DNA from: a candidate division CPR2 bacterium GW2011_GWC2_39_35
GTDB lineage: Bacteria; Patescibacteriota; CPR2
NCBI GenBank assembly: GCA_000995065.1
Contig: LBWX01000002.1
Span: 223,708-287,707, forward strand
Direction of reading: 5' to 3'
DNA: 64,000 nt
Part shown: piece after piece, positions 32,529-53,676 of the stretch
Layout of the letters: every line of letters begins with the position of its first letter
How positions within the stretch are numbered: position 1 is the first letter of the stretch
Notes under the pieces: generated by a model
Told to the model about the DNA's origin: nothing
The model's input: the letters and a program-made list of their open reading frames with translations, nothing else
The model's database searches: none
Translations under genes and position numbers: made by a program

Positions 32529-32791
32529 TTAATATTTTCTTAATATCTTTTTAAGGATTATCTAGTAATGTGGGCTTAGGTCGAGAATTATTAAATTAAT
32601 AAGGAGGAGGGGAAATGAAAGAAGTTCTTTTAAAGGCCCTTGTCGACAAAAATTCTAGATCCACAGCCGAACTTACAAAAGTTGCAGTGTCCGAAACTAC
32701 CAGTATGCCTTGGAGCGATGTCGCCGTTCCGTAAATCTTTTTTAAAACAGACCCGGTTTTTTCGTTTTATGGTTTTTATGGTACAATAATC

Positions 32792-36784: not shown

Positions 36785-36906
36785 TTCTTTTTACAAAGCC
36801 AAAACAGTTGAGTAGATAATGCTTGTTGCCATTGGCTTGACAAGGAAATTGGTTTGGGATACCGTGCTAAGAAACATTAGGGGTTTTATAATCTTTCGGA
36901 GGATAT

Positions 36907-39072: not shown

Positions 39073-39194
39073 TTTTTAAAATGAATTGGAATAGCCATAG
39101 CAATTAAGTGTTTGCCGTTTTATCTGATGACATCTTTATTTATGGATAAATTATCTAAAGGCAAATTTTACTGGAAAGCCAAAGCGAGACCGAA

Positions 39195-41006
39195 CTAATC
39201 GAGAACATATTTGATAAGCTCATCCGGCTCGCCAGCTTGATGGCCCCAAAGTTTTGCATAGAGACCATTTTGTTTTATTAACTTGTCATGCGTCCCGTCT
39301 TCAACAATTTGGCCTTCGCTGAGCACCAGTATCCGATCCAGGTGCTTAATAGTTGATAGTCGGTGAGCAATAACGATCGCCGTTTTGTCTTTCATCAGCT
39401 CCCACAGACCTTCCTGTATGTATTTCTCCGATTCCGAATCAAGAGAACTCGTTGCCTCATCCAAAACAAGTATGGGAGCTTTCTTTAAAAGGGCTCTGGC
39501 AATGGCCACTCTTTGCCTTTGACCGCCTGAGAGTTTGATGCCGCGTTCTCCAACCAAAGTTTCGTATCCTTGGGGAAGTTGCTTGATAAATTCATCTGAA
39601 TGAGCAATTTTTGCTGCCTTAATAACTTCTTCTTTAGTGGCTTTTTCATTTCCGTAAGCAATATTTTCAAATAAGGATCGATGAAAAAGTAGGGGTTCTT
39701 GGGGGACATAAGAAATTGCTTGGCGAAGCGAACTTTGAGTAACAGCTCTTATCGGTTGGCCGTCAATAAGGATATCTCCGGACTCAGGATCGATAAACCT
39801 TAAAAGTAATTTTGTGATTGTCGTTTTGCCGCCTCCGCTTGGTCCAACCAGGCCAACCTTCTCTTTGGTTTTGATATCCAAAACAAAGCTCTTTAAAAAG
39901 CTATCATCATCTTCGTTGTGATCGTCAAAATAACTAAAATTGACGTTTGCAAAAGAGATGTCTCCTCTTTCTACCTTTAGCTCCTTGGCATTTTCGGCGT
40001 CTCTAATGGCTGGCGGTTCAGTAAAAAGTTGGGTAAATTCCGCCGCTTCGCTTACGGAGGATTCTAAATTGCGATAAATCTTATTGATATGCCAAAATAC
40101 TCTTGTTACTTGAGCGTAATATGAGAAAACAACAACGATCGCACCGGCATTTAAGCCGAGGGTTTGGGCAAAAAATATGGCAGCTGCTAAGCCGGCAACA
40201 TTCGTAAAGACGTAAATTGGTGAAACGACAGTATCGTAACGTAAGTTGTGAAAATCGGCTGCTTCTTTGAACTTTTTAGTGTAAAGGTCGACGTGTTCCC
40301 CAAAGACCTTGTATTCATAATCTTCTTTCGCAAAAGATTTGATCGCCAGAATATTAGTCAAAGAGTCAGATCTACGGCCGGCCAATTTACTTCCGGCATC
40401 GTGTCTTTGGGCAACAAGCTTGACTCTTTTTTTGATTATCGGTATGGCTATCGCAATCATTATAAAGATGCAAACAATCAAAATAGTGGGAATCCACGGA
40501 GAATACCGCCATAATATAAAAAAAGCAAACAGCATAGGGATAATTTCTGAAAATATATTAAAGCTAAAAACGTCAATTACCTTTTCAAAGTTCAATGGAT
40601 AGGCAATAGATTTTTTTGTTAATGTACCGACAAAATTATTGGAAAAAAAATCGTAATCTTTCTCGGCTAGTAACTTGAAAGATTTTTTAGCCAGGGTATT
40701 GATGCCCTTTGTTTCCACTTTTATCAAAAAGTGTATCCCTATTCGCCAAAGGACCTCGCCAAGCATCCATCCAAAGGCAAATAGGAAAATATAGGTTGCC
40801 GATAAAGAAAGAGAAATTTGTCCTTGGCCTACAAACGTGTCGACTAGGTGGGCTACAATCAGCGGAGGAACGTAAACAACAAGAATGCTGCCGATGCCGG
40901 GCACAATCATGGCAATAATCGATTGCCATGGGTTGGCACGCAGTTGGCCCCAGTAATCCTTAATGACTTGATTTACCGCTTTTTTTGTAATCAGTTTTTC
41001 GTTCAT
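39195..41006 (-). CDS. ABC exporter, fused permease/ATPase (MsbA-like)
   Basis: Six N-terminal transmembrane segments, Walker A GPSGGGKTT, signature LSGGQRQRVAIARAL, and Walker B ILVLDEATS. Confidence 0.9.
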   Translation of the reverse strand: MNEKLITKKAVNQVIKDYWGQLRANPWQSIIAMIVPGIGSILVVYVPPLIVAHLVDTFVGQGQISLSLSATYIFLFAFGWMLGEVLWRIGIHFLIKVETKGINTLAKKSFKLLAEKDYDFFSNNFVGTLTKKSIAYPLNFEKVIDVFSFNIFSEIIPMLFAFFILWRYSPWIPTILIVCIFIMIAIAIPIIKKRVKLVAQRHDAGSKLAGRRSDSLTNILAIKSFAKEDYEYKVFGEHVDLYTKKFKEAADFHNLRYDTVVSPIYVFTNVAGLAAAIFFAQTLGLNAGAIVVVFSYYAQVTRVFWHINKIYRNLESSVSEAAEFTQLFTEPPAIRDAENAKELKVERGDISFANVNFSYFDDHNEDDDSFLKSFVLDIKTKEKVGLVGPSGGGKTTITKLLLRFIDPESGDILIDGQPIRAVTQSSLRQAISYVPQEPLLFHRSLFENIAYGNEKATKEEVIKAAKIAHSDEFIKQLPQGYETLVGERGIKLSGGQRQRVAIARALLKKAPILVLDEATSSLDSESEKYIQEGLWELMKDKTAIVIAHRLSTIKHLDRILVLSEGQIVEDGTHDKLIKQNGLYAKLWGHQAGEPDELIKYVLD

Positions 41007-41125
41007 TCTAAGTTTGTTTCCCTACTACTAAATTAAATTATAGCAATTAATAGTTGAGTGTTAAAGAATTTGAAAGATAAAGAAGCTGAAAAATATTTTT
41101 TAAAAAAAATAGTGCTTAATAATAA

Positions 41126-41158
41126 AACCGCCGGTTGCGTGAACCCGACGGTTTTTTT
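41126..41158. terminator. Hairpin with flanking A- and T-tracts (bidirectional terminator candidate)
   Basis: aaaaCCGCCGG-ttgcgtgaac-CCGACGGttttttt. Confidence 0.45.
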
Positions 41159-41183
41159 ATTTGGATTACGGAATATGCTAAGC

Positions 41184-41996
41184 TTACTCAACCTGAAATG
41201 AACGCAGAAAGATTTCTGCTTGACTGATGGTTTGCCACAGTTTTTTTCTCTTCTCCCTAAGTTTCCGCCTCTCGTCTAAACTAAGATGTGTTAGGGAAAG
41301 CCCTGAAACATTGCGGTTAGGTACGATATTATCCAGAGAACCCACATGCGCTATTTTATCGTAATAATCATTGATATAGGCTATCTGCCTGTCAGTTAAC
41401 AGGTGACCGTACACTTTGAGAAGAATTTTTATTCTTTCAAATTCCATGGTAAGTTGCATCCAGCTCTCACTTGGACAAGGCTCGACATCTTCAGGCTTAA
41501 GATCGTTTGCAAGCTTCTCTGCTGTATCCCTTGTAAACCAACCTCCCCATGGCTGATCCCTTGAAGCACGGCGCGCAAGTTCAGCAATCTCATCTTCATA
41601 GATTTCGTCTTCGCGCTGGTATTCGTGTTCTTCGATTGCATCGGCAATGAAATAGAATAGAATCCAGTGCACAGGAAAATCTTTGGAAAGAAATAGGAGA
41701 AGATCTTCTGCACTTTCTGCGAGCTTAGTTGCAAGCTTGTTGCTAAAAACAAACTCATCAAGCAGTTCCCGGGTGTCTTGGTGTCGTATTGTTTTTATCG
41801 TGTCTTCCATTAACCGTTCGTATGGATTTCTCAGGCCAGTAACCGCCGTGGCAAAGAGCATTGCCTTAAAGATATCGTACAAATCGAGCGCATCTTGTGC
41901 CAAGAGTATTGTCTTCCCCTTTCTGTTCTCGTCAAGTTCAACAGTGACTTTGCCAATTACTTCTTCTAATGTCTGACACAAGGGATCATCAATCAT
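41184..41996 (-). CDS. Hypothetical protein (first gene of the accessory island)
   Basis: 270 aa, acidic, no recognised domain. Confidence 0.4.
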   Translation of the reverse strand: MIDDPLCQTLEEVIGKVTVELDENRKGKTILLAQDALDLYDIFKAMLFATAVTGLRNPYERLMEDTIKTIRHQDTRELLDEFVFSNKLATKLAESAEDLLLFLSKDFPVHWILFYFIADAIEEHEYQREDEIYEDEIAELARRASRDQPWGGWFTRDTAEKLANDLKPEDVEPCPSESWMQLTMEFERIKILLKVYGHLLTDRQIAYINDYYDKIAHVGSLDNIVPNRNVSGLSLTHLSLDERRKLREKRKKLWQTISQAEIFLRSFQVE

Positions 41997-42171
41997 AATC
42001 TTATTCCTTCCACTCGGAGGTTTATATTCAATTGCTAAGATTGCATGGCAATTTGCCGATGTTACAGGATATCACAAAAAGACGTTTTTGTACATAATTT
42101 CGAAGGAATTTCGAGTCGCTCCTGAATTTAACATCAAAACTGCAGTGGAAAAGAAGATAATTGCTTTAATC

Positions 42172-42251
42172 TAGTCATCCCTGTGGAAGCGGGGATTCGG
42201 GAAGAGCGTATCTAGAAAAGGTCTGGATTCCAGACTCCGCGGGAATGACAA
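42172..42251 (-). mobile_element. MITE-like element, diverged copy 1 (terminal inverted repeats GTCATCCCTGTG ... CGCGGGAATGACAA)
   Basis: Its ends align with the reverse complement of the copy at 50276-50359. It lies in the divergent promoter region of the island. Confidence 0.5.
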
Positions 42252-42491
42252 GCATTTAATTTGTAAATAATCCAAAACGCTAGAATTCCGAACATCCTCC
42301 AACAAGCTACATTCGAATTACCAATCCTTAGTATCAATAATGTACTCACGAATTAATAAAATAAGAATAAGCTTAAAAATCACTGTACTTTTTTGAGCTG
42401 TGCTTTTGATTTTCCGCCTAACATTGAAGGAACATTGAAGGAAAAATCTTTGACCAATAGTTAGATAAATGATATAATTTCAGACTAATAG

Positions 42492-45224
42492 TTGCGGTAC
42501 AGTTACTTGAAAACTGAATATTTATCAGTGAACATAGGAGATTTAGGATTAGGAAAAGGAGTGGATTTCGTGAAAGAGATAGTAGTAGAGCAAGGCGCAG
42601 GGGATGAAGAAAAAAGAATGATTGAAAACATGCGAGGGATAGCAGTGGATGATGCGGAATTCGTAATAATGGCAGAAGAAAAGAAAGACACAGTGAATAA
42701 AAAACTATGGCTTGAAAACATGACGCGGATAACCGAAGATGATCTTCAATTCGTTTCGGGCACGGCTTGGAGGTTCTATAAACAGAATTCCATACTATTG
42801 GGAATGCTGGGTATAGACTTTTGTAGCCTGGAAGATGCGGCTTTCGGCGGTATGGAGGATGCGTGTAAAAGATACGATGAGACAAGAGGAAAAAGCTTGC
42901 GAGGATTCTATTACATTCGGGTTGTCGGAAGCATGTGGGATTTCATAAGAAGCCGCTCGCTTATCTCCAGATCAGCTCTAAAGGCCATAAAGGAAGTTCA
43001 GAGCTATGTTGCAAGCCAAAGCCAAGATGGCCGTGTAGTAACAAGCTCGGAGATATATGAAATATTTTCCGAGGCTCACGTAATGGCAATGGCGCAATCT
43101 AATAACAGGGTCGCTTTTCCGCTGTCGCTGGATCAAATTGTGTTGTATGGCGGCCAAGGGGGCAGGGTACAGGCTGAGACTTCTTATCATAACCTCATTT
43201 CTGATGATAGCGATACTGAAGACGATGCGACTTACCAGCAGGCTCTTGAAGAGCTTCGTGATGTCATCAAAGAGGTTAGTCTTAACTATGGTTCGTCGCC
43301 CGAGGTGAAGGAAAGAGCATTGTCGTTAATGGAAAAACGGTATAATTTCGATAGCGACTCAAAAGCTCCTTCGTTTAGGGAGCTAGGAGATGAATTCGGT
43401 TGTACCGAAAGTCGAGTAAGCCAAATTCACAGTAAGCTAATCAGCAAGCTGAAGGATGAAGAACCTGCATTGGATATTCTTAGGGACCTGGCGAGCAGGA
43501 TTAGCCGTCAAGGCATCTCTTCTCGTCAATCTGTTCGGATAGTATCCTTTGGTCAGCCGGACCTGACTCCTCCTCCGCACATTCGCCAGAAAAGAAGAAT
43601 ATCTAAACGTGAAGATGTCTACGACAAAAATGTAGCATCAGAGGAAACGTTGTTGGAGGCGGAGGATATTGAAGTCGAAGGAGTATCCGATGACAGCAGC
43701 ACCCCTCAGGATACTAAAGCTGTTTTTTTGTTTGATTCAGACATCAGGGCCTATAAGATTATGCTCGATTTATTGAAGAAGAGCAAAGATGGATTGGTGC
43801 GACTCAAAGAAAAGCATAAGGTTACTGATGAAGTACTTCTAAAGCTTAGGCGCAAGGGCTTTGCGATAATGCAAAGTGACGGCTCTGTGCTGGTGCAGAA
43901 GAAGAAATACATCAGGATGCCAGATCCTGAGTCAGAGTCCAGGCAGGATAAAGCTGTTTTTTCTTCGAGGAAAGCTAGGATTAAAGATAGCGAACCAGGG
44001 AAACGAGGGGCGCGAAAACTCACTGATTCTGATTGGGAGGAGCGCCACAAAGAGACGCTCGCGAAACTTTATGAGCGTTTCCCAGACGGATGTGTCGTTG
44101 GCGGACTGGGGACGATCTTTATCGAACTGAATATGAGAGGAGGTTTCAATTATCTTAAGAGATTCAAAGAAGACTCCGGTTTTCTGGAGGAGACTAGTCG
44201 CCTAAGGCATAGTTTTTCTGAGAAGGCAGAAGCTTATCTGGAATCTATAGGCAAGATCCTAATCAAGACGGAACCGGAGGATGTGCCCGAAGAGTCCAAA
44301 AACATAACTGCCACATCCGGAAAACCCGGAAGACAAAAGCTCTCTTCTGACCATTGGAGTGCTCGTCATAAAGAGACGCTAAAAAAACTCTACGACCAAT
44401 TCCCCGATGGATGGGTCATTGGTGGACTGAGTACGGTCTTTAAGGATCTGGGCATTGTCGGAGGACAGAGTTATCTTCAGAGGTTCAGAGACGTATCTGG
44501 TTTCCTTCTAAAGGTCAATGGATGGAAACATTGTTTCTCTGATGAGGCAATTGCCTATCTGGAATCGATTGGGCTAACCATTATCGAGCCAGAAGAGGAC
44601 GACTCGCTGGAAACCGATGATATCTCGACTTCAGGATCAAGAAGAGGCGGAAGGCGGAAGCTTACTGATGCAGACTGGGATGTTCGTTTGAGAGTCACGG
44701 TAGAGAAGCTTCATGAACGATTCCCAGATGGGTGGATAGTCGGTTCCCTGACTGAGATCTTTAGAGACTTAGGCATCAAGGGAGGATACAACTATCTTCA
44801 CAGGTTCAGAGAGTCCTTCTACATTCGCAAGGTTAAACATAGACAACATCGCCTTACCGATATTGCCAGCAGGTATCTCGAATCGATTGGAAAGAATATA
44901 ATCGAATCGGATCCAGGGAAGTACGATCAGGAACGATTCTTGCGGTCTTCCCAAAAGGCGGTCGAGATTTTAACGCCCATGGTTAAAACTATGAAGCAAG
45001 ATGACTGGCTTGCTGAGTTCTTGAGTAATGTTGTGCAAGAGAACGGTGGCTTTTGTTACAAAACGGATCTTGAAACTACTTGCAAAGACAAATATGGTTT
45101 TGTAAAAAAAGTCATGCTTAAGACTGCACGAAATGACGGGTACGTCAGCGAGGAAAGTGGCGGTAGCGGCGAGATAACCGAAAAAGGACAGGAGTTCTTA
45201 AGACAGAAGGGCTATATTAACTAA
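42492..45224 (+). CDS. Sigma-70-family-like protein (regions 2 and 4) fused to a ~590-aa C-terminal extension with three ~95-aa tandem repeats
   Basis: Region 2-like YDETRGKSLRGFYYIRVVGSMWDFIRSRS and region 4-like FRELGDEFGCTESRVSQIHSKLISKLK. Three repeats of LTD.DWE.RHKETL.KLYE.FPDGWV.GGL.T.F..LGI.GG..YL.RF...SGFL......S..A.AYLESIG. The gene looks locally GC-richer. Confidence 0.55.
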   Translation: MRYSYLKTEYLSVNIGDLGLGKGVDFVKEIVVEQGAGDEEKRMIENMRGIAVDDAEFVIMAEEKKDTVNKKLWLENMTRITEDDLQFVSGTAWRFYKQNSILLGMLGIDFCSLEDAAFGGMEDACKRYDETRGKSLRGFYYIRVVGSMWDFIRSRSLISRSALKAIKEVQSYVASQSQDGRVVTSSEIYEIFSEAHVMAMAQSNNRVAFPLSLDQIVLYGGQGGRVQAETSYHNLISDDSDTEDDATYQQALEELRDVIKEVSLNYGSSPEVKERALSLMEKRYNFDSDSKAPSFRELGDEFGCTESRVSQIHSKLISKLKDEEPALDILRDLASRISRQGISSRQSVRIVSFGQPDLTPPPHIRQKRRISKREDVYDKNVASEETLLEAEDIEVEGVSDDSSTPQDTKAVFLFDSDIRAYKIMLDLLKKSKDGLVRLKEKHKVTDEVLLKLRRKGFAIMQSDGSVLVQKKKYIRMPDPESESRQDKAVFSSRKARIKDSEPGKRGARKLTDSDWEERHKETLAKLYERFPDGCVVGGLGTIFIELNMRGGFNYLKRFKEDSGFLEETSRLRHSFSEKAEAYLESIGKILIKTEPEDVPEESKNITATSGKPGRQKLSSDHWSARHKETLKKLYDQFPDGWVIGGLSTVFKDLGIVGGQSYLQRFRDVSGFLLKVNGWKHCFSDEAIAYLESIGLTIIEPEEDDSLETDDISTSGSRRGGRRKLTDADWDVRLRVTVEKLHERFPDGWIVGSLTEIFRDLGIKGGYNYLHRFRESFYIRKVKHRQHRLTDIASRYLESIGKNIIESDPGKYDQERFLRSSQKAVEILTPMVKTMKQDDWLAEFLSNVVQENGGFCYKTDLETTCKDKYGFVKKVMLKTARNDGYVSEESGGSGEITEKGQEFLRQKGYIN

Positions 45225-45298
45225 ACTGTATAGGCGAGGTGACAAAAGGGACCGGTTCTTAATTTGAAGCTAATACTACTTAATGTTTTATTAAGTAA

Positions 45299-45790
45299 AT
45301 GCTTCATTTTAAGAATCGGTCCCGAATTATTTATGGGTTTTACTTCTCAATTACTCATGAAGACGATGAAATGAGAGGCCTTATTAGCAAAACCGACCAC
45401 AAGACACTGGCTCTTTGGAGTATTGATTGTGCGGAAAGAGTTATGCACTATTTTGAAACAGAATACACCGATGATCCTCGGCCTCGCGAAGCTATCAACA
45501 CTCTTCAGGAATGGATTAAAACGAGTAAATTCAGTATGAGGATTATCCGTCAAGCATCGTTAGCCTCACACGCCGCAGCCAAAGAGATTGGCAATGATAG
45601 TCCGGCTGCATCCGCAGCACATGCAGCTGGACAAGCCGTTGCGACTGCTCATGTATCAACGCATTCTTATGGACCTGCCGTATATGCTCAACAAGCTGTT
45701 TTTAAAGCTACAAACTCGTTAGACGCTGTTCAAAAAGAGAGGGATTGGCAATTTCAGCATTTGCTAGACCTTGGGGCCAAGAAGTACTAA
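45299..45790 (+). CDS. Putative immunity-protein-like all-alpha protein (LALW..DCAE..PRPRE family, Ala/His-rich)
   Basis: HKTLALWSIDCAERVMHYFE, DDPRPREAINTLQEWI, and the AASAAHAAGQAVATAHVSTH repeat typical of small orphan 'immunity protein' ORFs. The likely start is the internal MRGLIS. Confidence 0.5.
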   Translation: MLHFKNRSRIIYGFYFSITHEDDEMRGLISKTDHKTLALWSIDCAERVMHYFETEYTDDPRPREAINTLQEWIKTSKFSMRIIRQASLASHAAAKEIGNDSPAASAAHAAGQAVATAHVSTHSYGPAVYAQQAVFKATNSLDAVQKERDWQFQHLLDLGAKKY

Positions 45791-46075
45791 TTGCGACAAA
45801 TAAGTACTTAGCAGATTAGATTATTTGCATCATTAATAAAATAAGCTACCGAGAAATAGCTTATTAAGTATGCGTTCCATTTGGCGAGCCGAGATGTGCT
45901 TGAACTACTTCGTTTAACCGTGTTAATTTCAGACGTTCGTACTAGTATCTAGTTTCCATAATATGTATGATCAAATTAGATTAATAATGGGGTTATATGT
46001 GGGAGAAAATTAAAGATACTGTACTTTTGCATCAAGCGCAAAGCATAGTATTGTCTTTGATCGTTATTATCGGTA

Positions 46076-46426
46076 TTGCAGGCACCAGCTACTTTGTATT
46101 TCAAAAAGGTAATTCAAAATAATAATACGAAAGAAGGCACTCCTAGCAGTAGTACGGGGTCGTGCAGTGGGTTAGTCAAGTTTGGTGCCGTCTCAGTGGA
46201 GAAAGATCCGGCAGGAGATTCGGGGGCGTGGTTACGATTCGGCTATACGGCCGAAAAGGAGCTTAATTGTCAGTACACGATCACCTTCTACGACAGTCGA
46301 GAAGAGATAATCCGAACAATCCCAAATGTTGAAGATACCTTTCAATCTCCGAGCGGCCAGATCTATAATGGCTACAGCAGTACACCCTACCAATCAGGCA
46401 TGTCTGCAAAAGTTATCGTCAACTAG
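46076..46426 (+). CDS. Hypothetical small secreted protein (start uncertain; an overlapping upstream 41-aa transmembrane ORF sits in the -1 frame)
   Basis: 116 aa with a Ser/Thr-rich N-terminus and no known domain. Confidence 0.35.
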   Translation: MQAPATLYFKKVIQNNNTKEGTPSSSTGSCSGLVKFGAVSVEKDPAGDSGAWLRFGYTAEKELNCQYTITFYDSREEIIRTIPNVEDTFQSPSGQIYNGYSSTPYQSGMSAKVIVN

Positions 46427-46516
46427 TTTATAGTTCAGAGATTATAAAAACGCAAATACCGTGCTCAAAAGAGAACCGTCCCCTAAAAGTCTTACTGGAA
46501 CTATTCAATACTTACT

Positions 46517-47530
46517 TCATTCCTTTGAAGTGTATTTGAAGTTCACATCACGTTGTTTGGTAGGGAGCTGAAAACCGTCAATTTCAAAGGGATATGCAAG
46601 CACCCCGCCGGGGAAAGTCGCGTCGGGGCTGTAGCTCTTCCAATAGAAGAACGAGGTTGGCTGAACCCAATGCAGATTTTGGTTGCCCTGTTTTACGGTC
46701 AGATTTTTTGATTTGTCTGGCACCTTGAAACAAAATGAAGCAAAGGAGTGCTCGCCCACGTTCCCGGCATATCCGACCAGCTCCCCTCGTTTTACCGTCC
46801 GACCAATGAGCGCTTTGCAGGCTTTGGCGTTACCTTTCGAGGGAACTACATAATCATCAACTGGATAGAAAAGATGCCCTTCGGCCTGGTTATTTTTAGC
46901 GCCCCATTCAACATCATCACAATCTGAATTTTGGTAGTGCCCTTGCATTAAAGGCGAAGTATATAAATGATAAAGAATAATAGTCATTCCTGGCCAGTCA
47001 GGACTAGCAGATTCAAAAGTCAGCTCGATATCATTCATCGGTGTGTATTTTTTCCCGTCTGCTCCAATCCCAGATTCGCTGCTTTGATTCTTGAAACCAA
47101 CCAATGTCATATCTATTGGCGCAAGTAATGGTGCCTTGCTCTTAAGTTCGAATTCCATGCCACGCTTACCAGAATATGGCGTCGTCTTTGAATGAGAACC
47201 AACTTTGGGGCCGAGAGTAACAATATCTGAGTCAGCCCCTGTACCACCATACATTTCCGTATGAGTATTAATACCTTCCATGTTGGATGGGGGTGAAGTA
47301 ATCGCGGATACGCTTGTTGTGGGTACAGTTGGGATAGAAGTTGGCGAAGACATAGTGCTTGGTATCGATTTTTTGCTCTGTTTTTTTCCAGCCTTATTCA
47401 CTATTCCAAGACCAGCCAAAGCAAGTACAATTACAATAATAATTAAAATAAGCCCCATCCACCAATATTTTTTTAAGAAAGGTTTTTTGCTTGAAGGCTC
47501 ATTTTTCTCTTGATTGTTATCCAGCTCCAT
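46517..47530 (-). CDS. Membrane-anchored LytM/M23-like domain protein with degenerate active-site motifs
   Basis: Transmembrane helix, Ser/Thr/Pro-rich linker, and VKRGELVGYAGNVGEHSFASFCFKV resembling the M23 C-terminal G.V.kGq.IG.vG.TG.stGPHLHFE but lacking the HxH. Confidence 0.35.
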   Translation of the reverse strand: MELDNNQEKNEPSSKKPFLKKYWWMGLILIIIVIVLALAGLGIVNKAGKKQSKKSIPSTMSSPTSIPTVPTTSVSAITSPPSNMEGINTHTEMYGGTGADSDIVTLGPKVGSHSKTTPYSGKRGMEFELKSKAPLLAPIDMTLVGFKNQSSESGIGADGKKYTPMNDIELTFESASPDWPGMTIILYHLYTSPLMQGHYQNSDCDDVEWGAKNNQAEGHLFYPVDDYVVPSKGNAKACKALIGRTVKRGELVGYAGNVGEHSFASFCFKVPDKSKNLTVKQGNQNLHWVQPTSFFYWKSYSPDATFPGGVLAYPFEIDGFQLPTKQRDVNFKYTSKE

Positions 47531-47616
47531 TTGCTATAACTATACCACAAAATTAGCTTATTTTAGTATGCGTTCTATTCGGCGAGGTTAGTAGCGTTGG
47601 AACCTGCTCAAAATTC

Positions 47617-48306
47617 CTAACTTATATCCAAATCCCAAAGGATTGTCTTGAATAGTTCGTCACGATATTGGTTTAAAAAGTCATGATTTCCGTCAAGATT
47701 GATAATTCGGCTATTCTTTATGAGCCTAAGATTGTTGAAATCCATAACCTCGTCATTGATTGCATAAATAAGGGTAAGTTCGGTTTTCTTCGCTAGATTG
47801 TTGTAAAGTGAAACTACATCTGTTGTAAATCTTTCAGCCCAGTATTCTGGAGGGATGACAGTCACAGAACCATCGCTTCTACGTCTTCGGGTAATGTTGT
47901 AGAAATCTAATTGATTATCGGCAAGAGCCGTATAACGTTTCTGTAAATCTTCGATTTTAGTTTGAAAAAATGGTGATACTCCGATCACTTTTTCTACCTT
48001 GTCCGAGTTTTGACAGAGAGTTGGTATTAGGCTTCCCTGTGAATGCCCGATGATAATAATACTTTTGTATCTCTCGTCCCTGACTAGCTCATTGATGTGT
48101 TTCTGAAGGATGGACGCCTGGTCAGAAAAAGGTACAGCAAAAAGCTCCTTAGAATCCCCATCAAACTTATTGTAATTAAATTGTTTTGTTACAAATCCCC
48201 GTGATTCTAGCATAGACGCTAAAAAGGAAAATAGTCCTCGGGCATCTTTCATAACCCCAAAGCCATGCGAAAATAATATTACTGTATCTTGTGGTTTGTA
48301 TTTCAT
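47617..48306 (-). CDS. Alpha/beta-hydrolase fold protein
   Basis: Nucleophile elbow IIIGHSQGS and N-terminal HGFG. Confidence 0.6.
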   Translation of the reverse strand: MKYKPQDTVILFSHGFGVMKDARGLFSFLASMLESRGFVTKQFNYNKFDGDSKELFAVPFSDQASILQKHINELVRDERYKSIIIIGHSQGSLIPTLCQNSDKVEKVIGVSPFFQTKIEDLQKRYTALADNQLDFYNITRRRRSDGSVTVIPPEYWAERFTTDVVSLYNNLAKKTELTLIYAINDEVMDFNNLRLIKNSRIINLDGNHDFLNQYRDELFKTILWDLDIS

Positions 48307-48493
48307 GTCTAGATATTAGCAAAAAAAGTGCTTTGCAGAAAGGCTATTTTGCGTCATTAACAGAAATAAGCTGACCAAAGTCAGCTTATTCAGGATCTTA
48401 GGACAACCGGCCCCTAAGGCTTTCCTATTTTAACCACCACCAAAGGTGGTTGTGAAAATATGGCGATCCGAGTAGCGCAGGAACTAAATTAGA

Positions 48494-49879
48494 CTAAATA
48501 GTTGTAAAATAAGTTTTAAATTCACCTCTTTTGGCAATGATTTCCTTCAACTTTGCGCTATCGATACCCAACACACTTAGCAGTGATATTTTCATATATA
48601 TCTCTAGAACGATATTTACTCTAAACAATTCGACTGACGTAAGCAACTTATTTGAGCTCATTTTTAATGCATGCACGTAATTATTCCTAGTGTTTACAAT
48701 CTTTTTAATAATTTCATCATCCAATCCAATAGCTCCAGCATCTATGCAAAACGCCTCAATATCCTTCATTTTTCCCCTTAAAGAAAATTCAAAACCAAAA
48801 GCTGCCATGCTTTTTAATTTTTCTGCGTCGTCTTCAGATAGCGGCGCCGTTACTTTTTTCAACCATTCTTTATGCTCTTTCTTCCGCTTGTCAGTTACTG
48901 GATTGAGAAATCTTTTATGGAAAGATTCAACCGAAGATATCAGAGATAAAAATTTTGTAATGTCGGAAGCATTACCACTCCGACATGTTTTGATTGATTC
49001 CCATATTTCTCTTATTTCTTCATAATTATTAAACCAATATTTAATCATATTTTTCTTGATTTCATCTCTGATGTCCTCAAATTCAAATAACAACGAATAA
49101 GCACTTTCTCTCTCTGGCAATTGAAATGTGGCTGGAGAACTCAAGGATATTATGCTTAAAGTTGGGCTAATTTTTTTGCGAGGTCCTTTAAGATCTGAAG
49201 AAAAAATAATTTGATTAGTTTGCTCTTTAAATAAAAAGTTAAAAAATTCCTCAACAACTTTTAACATTATGACGGCTGACCAATAAGTCTGCTCATTAGA
49301 GAACTCAATTCTAATTAAATCATTATGAACTGCCCTAAATGATCTATCATATTGAAAATCAACTTGAAAATTCGTACTCATTTTCAAAGTACCATATGGC
49401 GGCAGTTCTACATCAAAATAATAGTTTTTTTTGTTCTTAAAACTTCTTGAATCACCATCAAAGTCTAGCAAGTTATCGTTAAAGAAAGTGTGAATGCCAG
49501 GTATTTCGCACTCAATATTCTTGATTTTCACTGGTATTTCCTTGTTACTCCAATTCTGTACAACGGCTAGCATCGAAGTAAAGTAAAGATCACTTTTACT
49601 GTAGAAGGGAATTCTTTTGTAGCCATTGAGATCGAATAATTTTATGCGAGAAAAATCACTTTTAGCTGCCGCATAATTAAATTTTTTAGGAAAATCTTCT
49701 AAATTTTTCCCTTGAATGTTCAATTCGAGGGATAAATCTGGAAAGCTTAGAAAGCCGTTCTTTTTTATTCCATTTCCAAAGGACCACATTCTTTTTTCTT
49801 TATAAGCATACAGTCCGTCAACTTTCGTGGTTAAGTCAATGTATGGTTCTTTAGAGAAAATTGTATTATTCTTTGCCAT
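48494..49879 (-). CDS. Hypothetical protein with C-terminal HEPN-like Rx4H motif (Abi/ApeA-like defence candidate)
   Basis: KIVNTRNNYVHA (R-x4-H) about 55 residues from the C-terminus in a predicted helical region. No other recognisable domain. Confidence 0.35.
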   Translation of the reverse strand: MAKNNTIFSKEPYIDLTTKVDGLYAYKEKRMWSFGNGIKKNGFLSFPDLSLELNIQGKNLEDFPKKFNYAAAKSDFSRIKLFDLNGYKRIPFYSKSDLYFTSMLAVVQNWSNKEIPVKIKNIECEIPGIHTFFNDNLLDFDGDSRSFKNKKNYYFDVELPPYGTLKMSTNFQVDFQYDRSFRAVHNDLIRIEFSNEQTYWSAVIMLKVVEEFFNFLFKEQTNQIIFSSDLKGPRKKISPTLSIISLSSPATFQLPERESAYSLLFEFEDIRDEIKKNMIKYWFNNYEEIREIWESIKTCRSGNASDITKFLSLISSVESFHKRFLNPVTDKRKKEHKEWLKKVTAPLSEDDAEKLKSMAAFGFEFSLRGKMKDIEAFCIDAGAIGLDDEIIKKIVNTRNNYVHALKMSSNKLLTSVELFRVNIVLEIYMKISLLSVLGIDSAKLKEIIAKRGEFKTYFTTI

Positions 49880-50043
49880 ATTTCACAAAAATTAGCATAC
49901 CGATCGGCATGCTAATTGCTTAGTAGGTCGACCGGTGGTTAATCGGTCTGTTATTTATTATTATTTGCCCTTCGACAAGCTCTCCTCGAGTCTGAGCGAC
50001 CTCGGAGTCGAAGACAGGGCATTTTCCGCCTTGCGGCGTAAAA

Positions 50044-50120
50044 TGGCGACCCGGACCAGACTCGAACTGGCGACCTCCTGCGTGACAGGCAGGCGTTCTA
50101 ACCAACTGAACTACCGGGCC
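50044..50120 (-). tRNA. tRNA-Asp(GTC), CCA encoded
   Basis: Reverse complement GGCCCGG..GCTT.., anticodon arm CCTGC-CTGTCAC-GCAGG, T-arm CGCCA-GTTCGAG-TCTGG, 3' GGTCGCCA. Confidence 0.85.
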
Positions 50121-50223
50121 TTAATTAGGAAGAAGGAATAATTAAGAAGCAAAAATTCTTCCTTATTACTTTTTCCTGTTTTGAACCTTCATAATATACC
50201 AAAAAAAGGGGGGAATGTAAAGA

Positions 50224-50386
50224 ATATGTCCCTGAACCACCCTCACTTTTTCAAAAACAAGAAAAATAACTCTAGTTGTCATTCCCGCGTAGGCGGGAAT
50301 CTAGGAAACTCATTACATTTCCAAGCCTTCTGGATCCTAAGTTTTCACGGGGATGACAAAAAGTGAGAGTAGTTCAGGATATGTCC
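50224..50386 (+). mobile_element. Composite MITE-like element: inner 84-nt element (50276-50359, terminal inverted repeats TTGTCATTCCCG / CGGGGATGACAA) nested within 28-nt outer inverted repeats
   Basis: Outer inverted repeats atatgtccctgaaccaccctcacttttt and aaaagtgagagtagttcaggatatgtcc. Internal hairpin ATTCCCGC-gtag-GCGGGAAT. A second, diverged copy lies at 42172-42251. Confidence 0.55.
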
Positions 50387-50396
50387 TGCGGGGGTG

Positions 50397-50729
50397 TTAT
50401 TTTTTTGCTCTCAAGGCTTTTTTAAAATTGCCGTCAAATTTATCTAAAAATTCATGGAGTTCGATTAGTTCGTCGGCGGAAATCTCTTCGGCTTCCTCAA
50501 ATTTCTTTAATTCGCCTCGTATAAGATCTAATTTATTTTTTTGAGGGTTCATAATGACGGTGGCCATTACCGCCAAGTCGCAATGCTGGCAGTTCATTTC
50601 CAATAAATAAGAAAAATTAAAAGTCCCCAAATACTTGATTTCGTTTTTGTCGTATGCCTTACCGCAAAGAGGGCATTTAAGCGTGCTTTTTAGTTTTTCT
50701 AGGATTTTGTTAAATTCTTTTTCGCTCAT
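50397..50729 (-). CDS. Zinc-ribbon (CxxC...CxxC) small protein
   Basis: CPLCGK ... CQHCD. Confidence 0.45.
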   Translation of the reverse strand: MSEKEFNKILEKLKSTLKCPLCGKAYDKNEIKYLGTFNFSYLLEMNCQHCDLAVMATVIMNPQKNKLDLIRGELKKFEEAEEISADELIELHEFLDKFDGNFKKALRAKK

Positions 50730-50741
50730 GCCGGTATTCTA

Positions 50742-52845: not shown

Positions 52846-52920
52846 TTGGAGCCGATGGGCGGGATCGAACCGCCACTCTTCGCTTTACGAAAGCGCTGCT
52901 TTACCATTAAGCTACATCGG
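52846..52920 (-). tRNA. tRNA-Thr(CGT), CCA encoded
   Basis: Reverse complement GCCGATG TA GCTT..AAGC, loop TTCGTAA, T-arm GGCGG-TTCGATC-CCGCC, 3' CATCGGC-T-CCA. One G27.A43 mismatch. Confidence 0.75.
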
Positions 52921-53040
52921 CGGCATGCAACGTAAGGTATGTGGAGAGGTTAATCCATCCCCTTAACTTAAGTTAAATTGACAATAAAAAACAAGGCATT
53001 TCACCTCTTAAACATGATTATTTTAACATATATTTGAAGA

Positions 53041-53092
53041 AATTCAAAATTCAAAAATCAAAAGGCAAAATTTCAATGCAAAGTTTAAAATT
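53041..53092. repeat. Dispersed intergenic repeat, family 2
   Basis: aattcaaaattcaaaaatcaaaaggcaaaatttcaatgcaaagtttaaaatt. Confidence 0.65.
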
Positions 53093-53099
53093 TTAGACA

Positions 53100-53602: not shown

Positions 53603-53676
53603 TGGAGCGAGTGAGGGGAATCGAACCCCCGTTTCAACCTTGGGAAGGTCGCGTTCTGCCATTGAACCACACTCGC
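53603..53676 (-). tRNA. tRNA-Gly(CCC), CCA encoded
   Basis: Reverse complement GCGAGTG TG GTTC..GAAC, loop TTCCCAA, T-arm GGGGG-TTCGATT-CCCCT. Confidence 0.8.

What the first reader, a model, noticed from the sequence alone, without database searches (positions are those of the whole stretch)
41100..50390. Accessory island at the 3' end of tRNA-Asp, bounded by two copies of a MITE-like element
A 9-kb block separates housekeeping genes (ABC exporter upstream, glycosyltransferase downstream). It contains only poorly characterised, mixed-orientation genes:
- a hypothetical protein;
- a sigma-like protein with tandem repeats;
- an immunity-protein-like gene;
- a small secreted protein;
- a degenerate M23-like protein;
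- an alpha/beta hydrolase;
- a HEPN-motif protein.
The block abuts the 3' end of a minus-strand tRNA-Asp. A roughly 84-nt element with inverted terminal repeats sits at both edges (42172-42251 and 50276-50359). The sigma-like gene looks GC-richer by eye. No integrase is present, so this would be an old or degraded integration.
Basis: partly seen in the sequence, partly recalled or inferred. Interest (0 to 1): 0.75.

Follow-up and report, generated by a model that had tools for sequence, protein, structure and literature searches.

The report
Gene cassettes strung behind tRNA-Asp
In this tiny groundwater (CPR2) bacterium, the stretch behind the tRNA-Asp gene is a swap-prone string of single accessory genes separated by a repeated spacer that begins with a tRNA-end look-alike, whereas the two "MITE-like" elements are worn copies of a hairpin repeat common across bacteria and do not bound the block.

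Summary
The sequence features are real, but the single MITE-bounded island is not supported. The window comes from a candidate-division CPR2 bacterium.

**MITE-like elements.** 42174-42249 and 50278-50357 are decayed inverted doublets of the NTS/SRM hairpin (REPIN-like), a repeat found across many phyla. Copy B lies 5' of tRNA-Asp and is conserved at that spot in relatives, so it predates the block.

**New boundary marker, R2.** This ~120-nt module holds:
- a 25-nt look-alike of the tRNA-Asp 3' end;
- a covarying hairpin;
- a promoter ending about 6-8 nt before the next ATG.

On the minus strand the order is tRNA-Asp, ApeA-like HEPN gene, remnant+R2, hydrolase, remnant+short R2, degenerate-M23 protein, remnant+R2 (50.04 to 45.79 kb). 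In relatives the real tRNA-Asp 3' end occupies the remnant's position, and R2 separates unrelated accessory genes in arrays.

**Evidence of turnover.**
- One co-occurring strain is otherwise substitution-free over 19 kb, but has a different gene in the HEPN slot.
- The M23-like gene has far lower synonymous divergence from a sister species than its neighbours.

**Rest of the block.** 41.1-45.8 kb holds an orphan sigma-like/three-repeat protein with an Imm5-like gene, and has no detectable boundaries. No integrase was found, so the insertion mechanism is inferred.

The parts
39195..41006 (-). ABC exporter, the conserved flank. It has its own promoter-like site at 41064-41037.
   Evidence: Pfam ABC_membrane plus ABC_tran. 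It is 75% identical to the CPR2 GWC1_39_9 and Howlettbacteria orthologues. Promoter scan scored 11/12.
41184..41996 (-). p270, a lineage-specific protein with a weak C-terminal HTH (YlxM / sigma region-4-like).
   Evidence: Pfam UPF0122 at E 4e-5 over residues 188-215 only. No tblastn match in the relatives' loci.
42174..42249 (.). NTS/SRM hairpin doublet A (the 'MITE-like' copy A). It is decayed and sits in a divergent intergenic region.
   Evidence: Termini located and fold z -3.4. Its arms show 7 and 4 mismatches out of 28 to the published NTS consensus. No target-site duplication is visible in the flanks.
42450..42478 (+). Near-consensus sigma-70-type promoter (TTGACC-17-TATAAT) for the sigma-like/Imm5 operon.
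   Evidence: Promoter scan 11/12 with a TG extension. Sequence read.
42570..45224 (+). sig884, an orphan protein. It has an N-terminal FliA/WhiG-like sigma-70 domain and three tandem 107-aa repeats (residues 483-800). The likely start is GTG at 42570, behind AAGGAG.
   Evidence: NCBIfam TIGR02479 at E 2.8e-16, below the curated cutoff. No homologue beyond itself in 5.8e9 clusters. In 1.84e9 representatives only the sigma part matches, at E >= 6e-9. Repeats are 44-49% identical. GC 45.0%.
45299..45790 (+). Imm5-like putative immunity protein. It lies 75 nt after sig884, and no toxin gene is adjacent. Strains differ by an indel at 45627-45640.
   Evidence: Pfam PF21805 at E 8e-40. Indels seen in L003 and L155.
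45789..45906 (-). Terminal boundary module: tRNA-Asp-3'-end-like remnant c (45882-45906) plus R2-1 (45789-45881). No gene follows it.
   Evidence: nhmmer E 5e-27. Sequence and alignments. It is 90% identical to the distal module of L138.
45907..46516 (.). 610 nt with no ORF on the array strand. It may be a decayed cassette. It contains the doubtful antisense ORF 46076-46426 ('small secreted protein').
   Evidence: Stops occur in all three minus-strand frames. GC 46%. Public annotations call it inconsistently.
46517..47530 (-). p337: a membrane-anchored protein with a Ser/Thr/Pro linker and a highly conserved ~250-aa domain of degenerate M23/LytM fold.
   Evidence: Core pLDDT is mostly 80-94. 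Foldseek top hits are lysostaphin and LytM (E 3e-3 to 1e-2, prob ~1). The HxxxD and HxH motifs are not kept (alignment). 489 homologues, 52-85% identical among the listed hits, from CPR and DPANN sources. dS 0.53 to the sister species, against 1.75 for ABC.
47531..47604 (-). Boundary module: remnant b (47580-47604) plus a shortened R2' that has lost the hairpin. A TATAGT -10 box sits 8 nt before the p337 ATG.
   Evidence: nhmmer partial hit at E 1.3e-5. Sequence.
47617..48306 (-). abh229, an alpha/beta-hydrolase-like protein. Its first 93 nt carry all the substitutions that distinguish the strain alleles.
   Evidence: Weak Pfam and NCBIfam hydrolase/lipase hits. SNP cluster at 48214-48300.
48307..48485 (-). 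Boundary module: remnant a (48461-48485), a 66-nt insert with two hairpins (48395-48460), and R2-2 (48307-48394). The -10 TAATAT box is at 48313-48318, 6 nt before the abh229 ATG.
   Evidence: nhmmer E 5e-28. Sequence. Hairpin fold z -3.3.
48494..49879 (-). HEPN461, an ApeA-like HEPN nuclease (candidate anti-phage defence gene). It occupies the strain-variable slot next to the tRNA.
   Evidence: Pfam HEPN_Apea at E 8e-15. PADLOC Cas13-ApeA at E 8e-23 and PDC-S58 at E 3.5e-21 over residues 97-455. RX4H motif RNNYVH present. GC 32.3%, z -2.2. Replaced by another gene in L003.
49880..50043 (-). Leader 'R3' between tRNA-Asp and HEPN461. It is not R2. It holds GC-rich hairpins and a CTAAGCA...GCTAATTTTTGT motif.
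   Evidence: Sequence. It is 73% identical to the region upstream of an unrelated gene in L011. L146 has a similar leader after its tRNA-Asp.
50044..50120 (-). tRNA-Asp (GTC), the anchor of the array.
   Evidence: ARAGORN. Rfam tRNA at 68 bits.
50278..50357 (.). NTS/SRM hairpin doublet B (the 'MITE-like' copy B). It lies 5' of tRNA-Asp and 3' of p110.
   Evidence: Its left arm is 2/28 mismatches from the NTS consensus and is the only SRM-pattern match in the window. An NTS hairpin sits at the same relative place in L135 and L141.
50397..52445 (-). p110 plus a family-2 glycosyltransferase, the conserved flank.
   Evidence: 52% and 61% aa identity to L007, 31% and 38% to L135. Pfam Glyco_trans_2_3.

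Best explanation
The 9-kb block is a composite variable region. It is not one island bounded by MITEs.

**Right half, 45.79-50.04 kb (read on the minus strand)**
- This half is a string of single-gene units anchored at the 3' end of tRNA-Asp.
- The units are an ApeA-like HEPN nuclease, an alpha/beta-hydrolase and a secreted degenerate-M23 protein.
- Each unit is followed by a boundary module, R2.
- R2 begins with a 25-nt look-alike of the tRNA-Asp 3' end (...TCGCCA).
- R2 continues with a conserved terminator-like hairpin.
- R2 ends with a -10-type promoter box only about 6-8 nt before the next start codon, which implies near-leaderless transcripts.

**Proposed origin (inferred)**
- New genes enter at the junction between the tRNA-Asp 3' end and R2.
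- Each entry pushes the earlier copy of 'tRNA end + R2' distally.
- Units are later exchanged between strains and species by recombination that uses R2 or the flanking genes as homology.
- Whether a dedicated recombinase is involved is unknown.

**Left half, 41.1-45.8 kb**
- It holds lineage-specific genes: p270, plus an orphan sigma-like/three-repeat protein co-directional with an Imm5-like gene behind a strong promoter.
- It has no recognisable boundaries.

**The two 'MITE-like' elements**
- They are decayed doublets of the pan-bacterial NTS/SRM (REPIN-type) hairpin.
- They are older than the block and are not its edges.
For: **Shown**
- Three R2 copies lie in direct orientation exactly in the gaps between the units: nhmmer E 5e-28, 5e-27 and 1.3e-5 (sequences).
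- In L135, L141 and L138 the real tRNA-Asp(GTC) 3' end occupies the columns where the remnants lie, with the same junction TCGCCA|AAT(A/G)GAAC.
- The R2 hairpin is maintained by compensatory change. Six of 11 pairs changed on both sides, 89.9% of cells are paired, and 0 of 500 shuffles reach the covariation score.
- A pattern scan of metagenomes found 16 loci. Many hold ORF-R2-ORF-R2 arrays with ORFs butting the module on both sides.
- The genes behind R2 in those arrays are unrelated accessory types: several GNATs, a radical SAM/SPASM protein, an EEP nuclease and a ferredoxin.
- Strain swap: L003 matches the window over 29202-48213 with no substitutions (only a 6-nt indel and runs of N). It then has 9 SNPs in 48214-48300 and unrelated sequence with another ORF end beyond the abh229 ATG.
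- Several independent assemblies break at 48218.
- Comparative turnover: L138 has tRNA-Asp (95% identical) - R2 - GNAT - a module 90% identical to remnant c + R2-1. In the window that same interval holds three different units.
- Exchange between species: p337 has dS 0.53 against L007, compared with 1.75 for ABC and saturation for GT and p110. R2 directly precedes the p337 homologue in L007 and L135.
The ends match the published NTS and REPIN sequences.

**Inferred**
- That the remnants derive from the tRNA.
- That the -10 box close to the ATG gives near-leaderless transcripts.
- The order of insertion events.
Against: - No integrase, transposase, RAYT or GIY-YIG gene was found among the window's scanned ORFs or in the pre-computed table for 29-36 kb. 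The insertion step therefore has no identified enzyme.
- The remnants match true tRNA-Asp 3' ends at only about 15-17 of 25 positions. That is not significant on its own, so the argument rests on their fixed position next to R2.
- The remnants resemble each other more than they resemble the tRNA. R2 plus remnant may therefore spread as one unit, rather than arising anew at each insertion.
- The unit next to the tRNA (HEPN461) is led by a different leader (R3), not by R2.
- In L007, R2 copies also flank an ABC exporter and a P-type ATPase, with no tRNA within 21.8 kb. R2 is therefore not restricted to tRNA-Asp arrays or to accessory genes.
- The alternative allele in L003 has no significant R2 in its 49-nt spacer.
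- The L155 mosaic could be an assembly chimera.
- All comparison loci are metagenomic, and many are short.
Confidence: 0.6

Rival explanations
1. First reader's model. A single old, degraded integrative element of about 9 kb inserted at the 3' end of tRNA-Asp. The two MITE-like copies mark its ends.
For: The block abuts the tRNA 3' end. The two related inverted-repeat elements are the only ones in 64 kb. The genes are accessory-like.
Against: - Copy B lies 5' of the tRNA, outside any 3' insertion.
- NTS hairpins sit at the same place relative to tRNA-Asp or p110 in L141 and L135, which have different genes there.
- The copies are about 60-70% identical, mutually inverted, and lack target-site duplications.
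- No tRNA repeat lies near 41-42 kb.
- p337 lies next to ABC in the sister species.
- GC ranges from 45% down to 32% within the block.
Confidence: 0.04
2. R2 is only a common intergenic terminator-plus-promoter repeat of these genomes, a functional analogue of Correia, REP or BIME elements. It happens to derive from the region downstream of tRNA-Asp. It plays no part in gene gain. The variability here is ordinary homologous recombination in a fast-evolving region.
For: - R2 carries a covarying hairpin and a promoter-like box.
- In L007 it flanks housekeeping-type transporters away from any tRNA.
- The L003 swap has a recombination endpoint inside abh229, not at R2.
- No recombinase was found.
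Against: - All three copies in 64 kb lie inside the 4.3-kb stretch behind tRNA-Asp.
- Every tRNA found within about 0.8 kb upstream of an R2 copy in the five loci is tRNA-Asp.
- The tRNA-end look-alike is carried along with R2, although a terminator or promoter does not need it.
- The arrays hold unrelated accessory genes, and the content between tRNA-Asp and the conserved distal module differs between the window and L138.
Confidence: 0.25
3. The block reflects large-scale rearrangement (inversions and translocations) between tRNA genes and NTS hairpins, not gene insertion. The apparent 'island' is native DNA brought together by shuffling.
For: - Synteny around ABC, GT and tRNA-Asp is scrambled among L007, L011, L135, L138 and L141.
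- The GT block is inverted relative to tRNA-Asp-R2-p337 in L135.
- NTS hairpins sit at the edges of the conserved blocks.
Against: - Rearrangement does not explain the orphan status of sig884.
- It does not explain the strain-level replacement of HEPN461 within otherwise identical DNA.
- It does not explain the low dS of p337.
- It does not explain the repeated tRNA-end remnants.
Confidence: 0.1

Closest known systems
tRNA-anchored genomic islands with serial partial tRNA repeats, for example the hypervariable islands of Prochlorococcus flanked by tRNA genes and repeated tRNA 3' portions (own knowledge: Coleman et al. 2006, Science)
   Same: Accessory genes lie directly behind a tRNA 3' end. 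Several direct copies of the tRNA 3' portion lie within the island. Content differs between close strains. Composition is mixed.
   Different: The repeated unit here is longer. It includes a conserved hairpin and a promoter as well as the tRNA end. It delimits single genes of 0.7-1.5 kb. No integrase or phage genes are present. The host is a CPR bacterium.
Integron cassette arrays and CALINs, which are attC clusters lacking an integrase (own knowledge: Cury et al. 2016, NAR)
   Same: Co-directional arrays hold unrelated small accessory genes, with GNATs prominent. A structured repeat of roughly 60-140 nt lies between every pair of genes. Arrays occur without an adjacent integrase.
   Different: R2 has no attC core sites (RYYYAAC/GTTRRRY), by inspection only. 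It carries its own promoter, whereas integron cassettes are mostly promoterless. It begins with a tRNA-end look-alike. The array head is a tRNA gene rather than attI/intI.
Neisseria NTS/dRS3 hairpins and REPINs, with their Ssn (GIY-YIG) or RAYT partners (PMC11893778; bioRxiv 10.1101/2021.07.10.451892)
   Same: The arms of the two 'MITE-like' elements carry the NTS sequence GTCATTCCCGCG-NNN-GCGGGAATC. The best arm has 2 mismatches of 28. The arms are arranged as inverted doublets 76-80 nt long, like REPINs. They lie in intergenic DNA next to variable genes.
   Different: Only two partly decayed copies lie in 64 kb. No Ssn or RAYT gene is in the window. The host is a CPR bacterium, a group not named in the main text of the Ssn paper.
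ApeA single-gene anti-phage defence, a HEPN tRNA-anticodon nuclease activated by deoxydinucleotides (bioRxiv 10.64898/2026.01.26.701840)
   Same: HEPN461 matches Pfam HEPN_Apea and the PADLOC ApeA and PDC-S58 models over most of its length. It keeps an RX4H motif. It is a stand-alone gene in a variable slot.
   Different: No activity, oligomer or ligand pocket was tested. There is no sequence match to solved structures at E <= 1.
Promoter- or terminator-bearing dispersed repeats such as Neisseria Correia elements (own knowledge)
   Same: A short dispersed intergenic repeat that supplies a hairpin and promoter signals to neighbouring genes.
   Different: R2 has no terminal inverted repeats. It is strictly oriented with the downstream gene. 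It starts with a tRNA-end look-alike and forms arrays behind tRNA-Asp.

Membership tests
Integrase-mediated tRNA-integrated genomic island | Lies directly at the 3' end of a tRNA gene | tested here: met
   tRNA-Asp is at 50044-50120 (-). The first unit starts 164 nt after its 3' end.
Integrase-mediated tRNA-integrated genomic island | Direct repeat of the tRNA 3' portion at the distal boundary | tested here: inconclusive
   No repeat lies at 41-42 kb. Three degenerate 25-nt look-alikes lie at 48461-48485, 47580-47604 and 45882-45906. They match at about 15-17 of 25 positions and are placed exactly where true tRNA-Asp ends lie in relatives.
Integrase-mediated tRNA-integrated genomic island | Integrase/recombinase gene in the island | tested here: not met
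   No recombinase family appears in Pfam scans of all block proteins and the other scanned window ORFs of at least 100 aa. None is listed in the pre-computed table for 29-36 kb either.
Integrase-mediated tRNA-integrated genomic island | Presence/absence or content variation between close strains | tested here: met
   The L003 strain has a different gene in the HEPN461 slot, within otherwise substitution-free DNA.
MITE | Terminal inverted repeats | tested here: met
   GTCATYCCYGYG lies at both ends of both copies.
MITE | Target-site duplication flanking the element | tested here: not met
   Flanks are CTA/AAG for copy A and GTT/AAA for copy B. No duplication is present.
MITE | Parent insertion sequence with the same terminal repeats | not testable with these tools
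   No transposase is in the window, and genome-wide data are not available.
NTS/SRM hairpin, REPIN doublet | Match to the NTS consensus CGTCATTCCCGCGMAVGCGGGAATCYRG or to the SRM pattern | tested here: met
   B-left has 2/28 mismatches and matches the SRM pattern (1 hit in the window against 0.1 in shuffles). A-right has 4, A-left 7 and B-right 13 mismatches (consensus from PMC11893778).
NTS/SRM hairpin, REPIN doublet | Two hairpins in inverted orientation less than 130 nt apart | tested here: met
   The elements are 76 and 80 nt long with hairpin arms at both ends. The same architecture appears in all 128 element copies read in the 120 loci.
NTS/SRM hairpin, REPIN doublet | Cognate Ssn (GIY-YIG) or RAYT gene in the genome, and many copies per genome | tested here: inconclusive
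   Neither gene is in the 64-kb window. Only 2 copies were seen. The whole genome could not be searched.
Integron / CALIN cassette array | attC sites with conserved core sites, and an IntI integrase | tested here: not met
   Inspection of the R2 consensus shows no RYYYAAC/GTTRRRY pair. No integrase was found. No attC covariance model was available.
ApeA (HEPN) defence protein | HEPN_Apea domain with an RX4-6H motif, full-length match to ApeA models | tested here: met
   Pfam PF18739 at E 8e-15 (55.9 bits against a cutoff of 24.4). PADLOC Cas13-ApeA at E 8e-23 and PDC-S58 at E 3.5e-21 over residues 97-455. RNNYVH motif present.
ApeA (HEPN) defence protein | tRNA anticodon cleavage, ring oligomer, ligand activation | not testable with these tools
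   These are biochemical properties described in bioRxiv 10.64898/2026.01.26.701840.
Sigma-70 family (FliA/WhiG group) | Regions 2 and 4 scoring above the family cutoffs | tested here: inconclusive
   TIGR02479 matches at E 2.8e-16 over model positions 28-221 of 224, but scores 59.9 bits against a cutoff of 189.6. Pfam Sigma70_r4 scores 21.5 bits against 24.1.
Peptidase M23 (LytM/lysostaphin) | M23 fold | tested here: met
   The top 8 Foldseek PDB hits are all M23 proteins (E 3e-3 to 2.5e-2, prob 0.99-1.0, TM on target up to 0.55), and most further hits at E < 0.1 are too. Model core pLDDT is mostly 80-94. No Pfam hit.
Peptidase M23 (LytM/lysostaphin) | Zinc-binding HxxxD and HxH motifs | tested here: not met
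   The family alignment shows MEFEL in place of HxGxD and HSF in place of HxH. This reading is by eye, not from a structural superposition.
Imm5-like immunity protein of polymorphic toxin systems | Imm5_like domain, with the cognate toxin encoded next to it | tested here: inconclusive
   The domain is met (PF21805, E 8e-40). No toxin domain is in the neighbouring genes. The upstream gene is the sigma-like orphan.

The most novel reading that the evidence does not exclude
R2 (tRNA-Asp-end look-alike + hairpin + promoter) could be the recombination site of an undescribed gene-cassette capture system in CPR bacteria. The system would use the 3' end of tRNA-Asp as its primary attachment site. It would be integron-like in outcome, giving arrays of unrelated single accessory and defence genes. 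It would differ in that every cassette carries its own terminator and near-leaderless promoter, and the recombinase acts in trans and is not yet identified.
Probability: 0.2. Interest if true: 0.8.

Novelty: new variant of a known kind. Interest (0 to 1): 0.55.

Why it matters
CPR/Patescibacteria have very small genomes, and little is known about how they gain and lose genes. This locus gives a concrete, testable case.
- It is a hot spot behind tRNA-Asp where single accessory genes sit between copies of a portable terminator/promoter module.
- One of those genes is a candidate ApeA-type anti-phage nuclease.
- One slot demonstrably differs between co-occurring strains that are otherwise substitution-free over 19 kb.
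- One gene appears to have been exchanged between species.

If R2 proves to be a true recombination site, it would be a new cassette system in a major uncultivated lineage. If not, it still defines a promoter/terminator module useful for annotating CPR2-like genomes.

The work also shows that the NTS/SRM (REPIN-type) hairpin known from Neisseria reaches into CPR bacteria. In addition, it flags a strikingly conserved degenerate-M23 surface protein found in sequences from both CPR bacteria and DPANN archaea.

Tried and rejected
- **tRNA-Asp direct repeat.** I searched 38-50 kb with a 23-mer at up to 3 mismatches and with k-mers of 10-14. Only an 11-mer at 42409 turned up, which is at chance level. 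The degenerate remnants were found later through R2.
- **Synteny with the nearest ABC orthologues** (L007, L011, L010). These genomes are too rearranged to define an empty site.
- **Rfam.** Nothing was found in 36-55 kb except the three tRNAs at E <= 1.
- **RNAalifold on the R2 alignment.** It gave no structure because of loop misregister. I replaced it with explicit pair counting.
- **R2 in viral contigs.** No hits, so there is no sign of a phage attP.
- **Sequence searches of solved structures** for p337 and HEPN461. No useful hit.
- **PHROGs.** Only weak hits to sigma factors and to TM segments.
- **L146 tRNA-proximal ORF.** It has an RX4H-like motif but no Pfam hit and no BLAST similarity to HEPN461, so I do not claim it as HEPN.
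- **L003 alternative spacer.** No significant R2, only a 16-nt match at E 0.18.
- **GIY-YIG/Ssn in the window.** A motif regex and tblastn with the L134 GIY-YIG protein found none.
- **Literature.** Searches for MITEs, integrons or tRNA islands in CPR found nothing relevant.
- **Composition.** GC and codon usage alone do not mark the block as foreign. The extremes reach only about 2 sd and point in opposite directions.

Full report
**Source and layout**

The ABC exporter of the window is encoded identically on contigs of several Rifle-aquifer assemblies of a candidate-division CPR2 bacterium (GCA_000995385.1, GCA_003500505.1, GCA_001771075.1). Its nearest orthologues, at 75% identity, are named CPR2 GWC1_39_9 and Howlettbacteria.

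Every other scanned ORF of the window that has a Pfam match matches an ordinary cellular family: FtsH, LepA, MurJ, BacA, NDK, hydrogenase subunits, L25 and similar. None shows a mobile-element, toxin-immunity or defence domain. The block at 41-50 kb stands out by content. It holds:
- p270;
- a sigma-like protein with repeats;
- an Imm5_like protein;
- a 337-aa protein;
- a weak alpha/beta-hydrolase;
- a HEPN_Apea protein.

**Checking the observation**

tRNA-Asp(GTC) is at 50044-50120 on the minus strand. The two inverted-repeat elements are at 42174-42249 and 50278-50357. Their 12-nt termini occur four times in the window against 0.64 expected, and the plus strand of each folds better than shuffles.

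The two copies are only about 60-70% identical and are mutually inverted. Neither has a target-site duplication. Copy B lies on the 5' side of the tRNA, so the tRNA itself sits inside the interval bounded by the elements.

The sigma-like gene is the GC-richest long ORF (45.0%, z 1.7; GC3 z 2.0). The HEPN gene is among the GC-poorest (32.3%, z -2.2). Composition is therefore mixed and only mildly deviant. No integrase, transposase, RAYT or GIY-YIG domain appears in any scanned ORF or in the pre-computed table for 29-36 kb.

**What the 'MITE-like' elements are**

The hits span Alpha-, Beta- and Gammaproteobacteria, Bacteroidota, Planctomycetota, Chloroflexota, Acidobacteriota, Rickettsiales and two Patescibacteria.

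All 128 element copies read share one plan. It is GTCATTCCCGCG-loop-CGGGAATCCAG, then 20-45 variable bases, then the inverted copy.

The literature search identified the arm as the Neisseria NTS, CGTCATTCCCGCGMAVGCGGGAATCYRG. The NTS contains dRS3 and is cut as single-stranded DNA by the GIY-YIG nuclease SsnA. More generally it is an 'Ssn-related motif' (PMC11893778). The inverted doublet is the Neisseria REPIN attributed to a RAYT transposase (bioRxiv 10.1101/2021.07.10.451892).

In the window, arm B-left differs from the NTS at 2 of 28 positions and is the only SRM-pattern match. The other arms differ at 4, 7 and 13 positions, so the copies are decayed.

A single NTS hairpin sits just after the p110 homologue in L135. 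A hairpin 96% identical to B-left sits 490 nt 5' of tRNA-Asp in L141. Copy B is therefore an old resident of this intergenic spot, not the edge of a recent insertion.

**The second repeat, R2**

Comparison with relatives exposed a different repeat. A profile built from its copies finds three in the window, all on the minus strand and all inside 45.79-48.49 kb. The consensus, taken from 26 copies, has four parts:
- GGTTCCAGCGCTACTCGnTTCGCCA, the tRNA-end look-alike;
- AATGGAACAnATACTT;
- the hairpin AATAAGCTGAC-TTTG-GTCAGCTTATT;
- TATTAATGACGCAAAA...TCTGCTAAGCACTTTTTGTGnTAATAT, followed about 6-8 nt later by the ATG of the next gene.

The hairpin is kept by compensatory change. Six of 11 pairs changed on both sides, and 0 of 500 shuffles reach the observed covariation.

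In L135, L141 and L138 the first 25 positions are the true 3' end of a tRNA-Asp(GTC) gene, with the same junction TCGCCA|AAT(A/G)GAAC. Elsewhere those positions hold a degenerate look-alike. It matches at about 15-17 of 25 positions, which is not significant alone. Its weight comes from its fixed position.

**Anatomy of the right half, read on the minus strand**

1. tRNA-Asp (50120-50044).
2. A 164-nt leader that is not R2.
3. HEPN461 (49879-48494).
4. Remnant a (48485-48461), a 66-nt insert, and R2-2 with TAATAT 6 nt before the ATG.
5. abh229 (48306-47617).
6. Remnant b (47604-47580) and a shortened R2 without the hairpin.
7. p337 (47530-46517).
8. 610 nt with no ORF on this strand.
9. Remnant c (45906-45882) and R2-1 (to 45789). 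R2-1 faces the 3' end of the convergent Imm5 gene.

**R2 elsewhere**

A metagenome scan found 16 loci, while viral contigs gave none. Many loci hold two or three R2 copies in direct orientation, 0.3-3 kb apart, with ORFs ending at the start of the module and beginning at its end.

The genes behind R2 are unrelated:
- several different GNAT acetyltransferases;
- a radical SAM/SPASM protein;
- an EEP nuclease/phosphatase;
- a ferredoxin;
- a deoxyribosyltransferase-like protein;
- unknowns.

Every tRNA found within about 0.8 kb upstream of an R2 copy is tRNA-Asp (window, L135, L138, L141, L146).

R2 is not confined to such arrays. L007 has four copies with no tRNA within 21.8 kb, two of them flanking the ABC exporter.

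**Evidence for turnover**

1. **Strain swap.** L003 comes from another sample of the same site. It matches the window from 29202 to 48213 with no substitutions, differing only by one 6-nt indel and runs of N. It then has nine substitutions in the first 93 nt of abh229, two of them non-synonymous. Upstream of the abh229 ATG it is unrelated and ends a different ORF.
2. **Assembly breaks.** Independent assemblies break at 48218 and at 49917. One MAG (L155) carries HEPN461 with four of the nine variant bases. Two alleles therefore co-exist, with a recombination endpoint inside abh229. The L155 mosaic could be an assembly chimera.
3. **Comparison with L138.** Its tRNA-Asp is 95% identical to the window's. 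L138 has tRNA-Asp - R2 - GNAT - a module 90% identical to remnant c + R2-1. The same interval in the window holds three different units.
4. **Exchange of p337 between species.** p337 is 85.5% identical in protein and 85.8% in DNA to its L007 counterpart. Its dS is 0.53, against 1.75 for ABC and saturation for GT and p110. This points to exchange after the two species diverged. R2 directly precedes the p337 homologue in L007 and L135. In L134 and L136 the gene has quite different neighbours and no R2 was detected.

**The genes**

- **HEPN461** matches Pfam HEPN_Apea and the PADLOC ApeA and PDC-S58 models over most of its length, and it has RNNYVH. ApeA is a stand-alone abortive-infection HEPN nuclease that cuts tRNA anticodon loops (bioRxiv 10.64898/2026.01.26.701840). 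Function here is inferred from family membership.
- **p337** belongs to a family of 489 detected proteins without a Pfam domain. The listed hits are 52-85% identical, and their source names include Patescibacteria and Nanoarchaeota/'archaeon'. Its model (core pLDDT mostly 80-94) matches LytM and lysostaphin. The zinc motifs are replaced, so 'degenerate M23-like' is a fair description.
- **sig884** probably starts at GTG 42570, behind AAGGAG and a TTGACC-17-TATAAT promoter. It has a FliA/WhiG-like sigma region scoring below the cutoff and three 107-aa repeats. It has no homologue beyond the sigma part among 1.84 billion representatives.
- **The Imm5_like gene** follows sig884 75 nt later, with no toxin nearby.
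- **p270** has only a weak HTH.
- None of the left-half genes occurs in the relatives' loci. No boundary of the left half could be defined.

**Interpretation**

The right half is best read as a tRNA-Asp-anchored string of single-gene units. They are separated by a portable module that supplies a terminator-like hairpin and a promoter close to the start codon.

The repeated tRNA-end look-alikes suggest successive entry at the junction between the tRNA 3' end and R2. The strain and species comparisons show that units are replaced and exchanged.

It cannot yet be decided whether entry uses a site-specific recombinase acting in trans or only homologous recombination on R2 and the flanks. No recombinase is in the window, and the one resolved endpoint lies in a flanking gene.

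The main rival is that R2 is just a common terminator/promoter repeat with no role in gene gain.

**Comparison with known systems**

The closest known pattern is a hypervariable tRNA-flanked island with repeated tRNA 3' portions, as in Prochlorococcus (own knowledge). The array form recalls integron cassettes or CALINs. However, R2 lacks attC core sites by inspection, carries a promoter, and starts with a tRNA-end look-alike.

The hairpin doublets are members of the NTS/SRM-REPIN kind. I rate the whole as a new variant of a known kind. Searches of the held literature found no description of such arrays in CPR bacteria, but that search was narrow.

Noticed in passing
window 46517-47530 (-); homologues P0257-P0376: The p337 family is very strongly conserved. 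There are 489 detected proteins and no Pfam domain, and the listed hits are 52-85% identical over 60-100% of the protein. Source names include both Patescibacteria and Nanoarchaeota/'archaeon'. The proteins have a TM anchor, a variable Ser/Thr/Pro linker and a degenerate M23-like domain. Gene neighbourhoods differ in every genome looked at.
   Followed up: partly
window 42570-45224 (+): The sigma-like orphan: its C-terminal 560 residues, including three 107-aa repeats, have no detectable relative among 1.84 billion representative proteins. It is co-directional with an Imm5-like gene 75 nt downstream.
   Followed up: partly
window 53100-53564 (-), between tRNA-Gly 53603-53676 and tRNA-Thr 52847-52921: A low-GC (32.5%) GNAT acetyltransferase starts 38 nt after the 3' end of tRNA-Gly. 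In L135 the same two tRNAs are 13 nt apart with nothing between them. This looks like a second single-gene insertion directly behind a tRNA.
   Followed up: partly
window 5226-5277, 16465-16516, 18446-18536, 26243-26301, 26425-26459, 53038-53128; inverted copies at 19646-19698 and 26931-26970: A family of A-tract intergenic repeats (TCAAAAnTCAAAA...GGCAAAATT...). Several lie next to tRNA genes (tRNA-Ile, tRNA-Arg, tRNA-Thr).
   Followed up: no
window 63693-63825: A perfect heptanucleotide tandem array, (AAATAGG)n, of about 16 copies near the end of the window.
   Followed up: no
window 5522-5956, 10681-11103, 19138-19650, 61058-61600: Four NUDIX hydrolase paralogues in 64 kb. Two of them start 49 and 111 nt after a tRNA gene (tRNA-Ile and tRNA-Pro).
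   Followed up: no
window 45627-45640 (inside Imm5-like gene): An indel hot spot. L003 lacks 6 nt here. L155 lacks 14 nt, a frameshift that shortens the product to 130 aa. The site lies in an alanine-rich GC-rich stretch.
   Followed up: partly
window 49880-50043 (-); L011 636-722; L146 about 760-880: A second leader type ('R3': GC-rich hairpins, then CTAAGCA..TTAGC-hairpin-GCTAATTTTGT, then ATG). It is shared upstream of unrelated genes in three CPR2-like genomes, twice directly after tRNA-Asp.
   Followed up: partly
L135 5204-5230; L141 1131-1158; window 50278-50357: NTS hairpins sit at the edges of blocks that are inverted or relocated between relatives (the p110-GT-tRNA-Thr-tRNA-Gly block against tRNA-Asp-R2-p337). 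They may mark rearrangement breakpoints.
   Followed up: partly
L134 11129-11380: A small (83-aa) stand-alone GIY-YIG protein, possibly Ssn-like, is encoded right after the p337 homologue in a related CPR genome. No NTS termini were found in that 20-kb locus.
   Followed up: no
L007 1710-2825 and L011 2220-2999: In the two nearest relatives the region upstream of the ABC exporter also holds conflict-type genes (an RVT_1 reverse transcriptase and AbiEii). The ABC neighbourhood is therefore variable in all three genomes.
   Followed up: no
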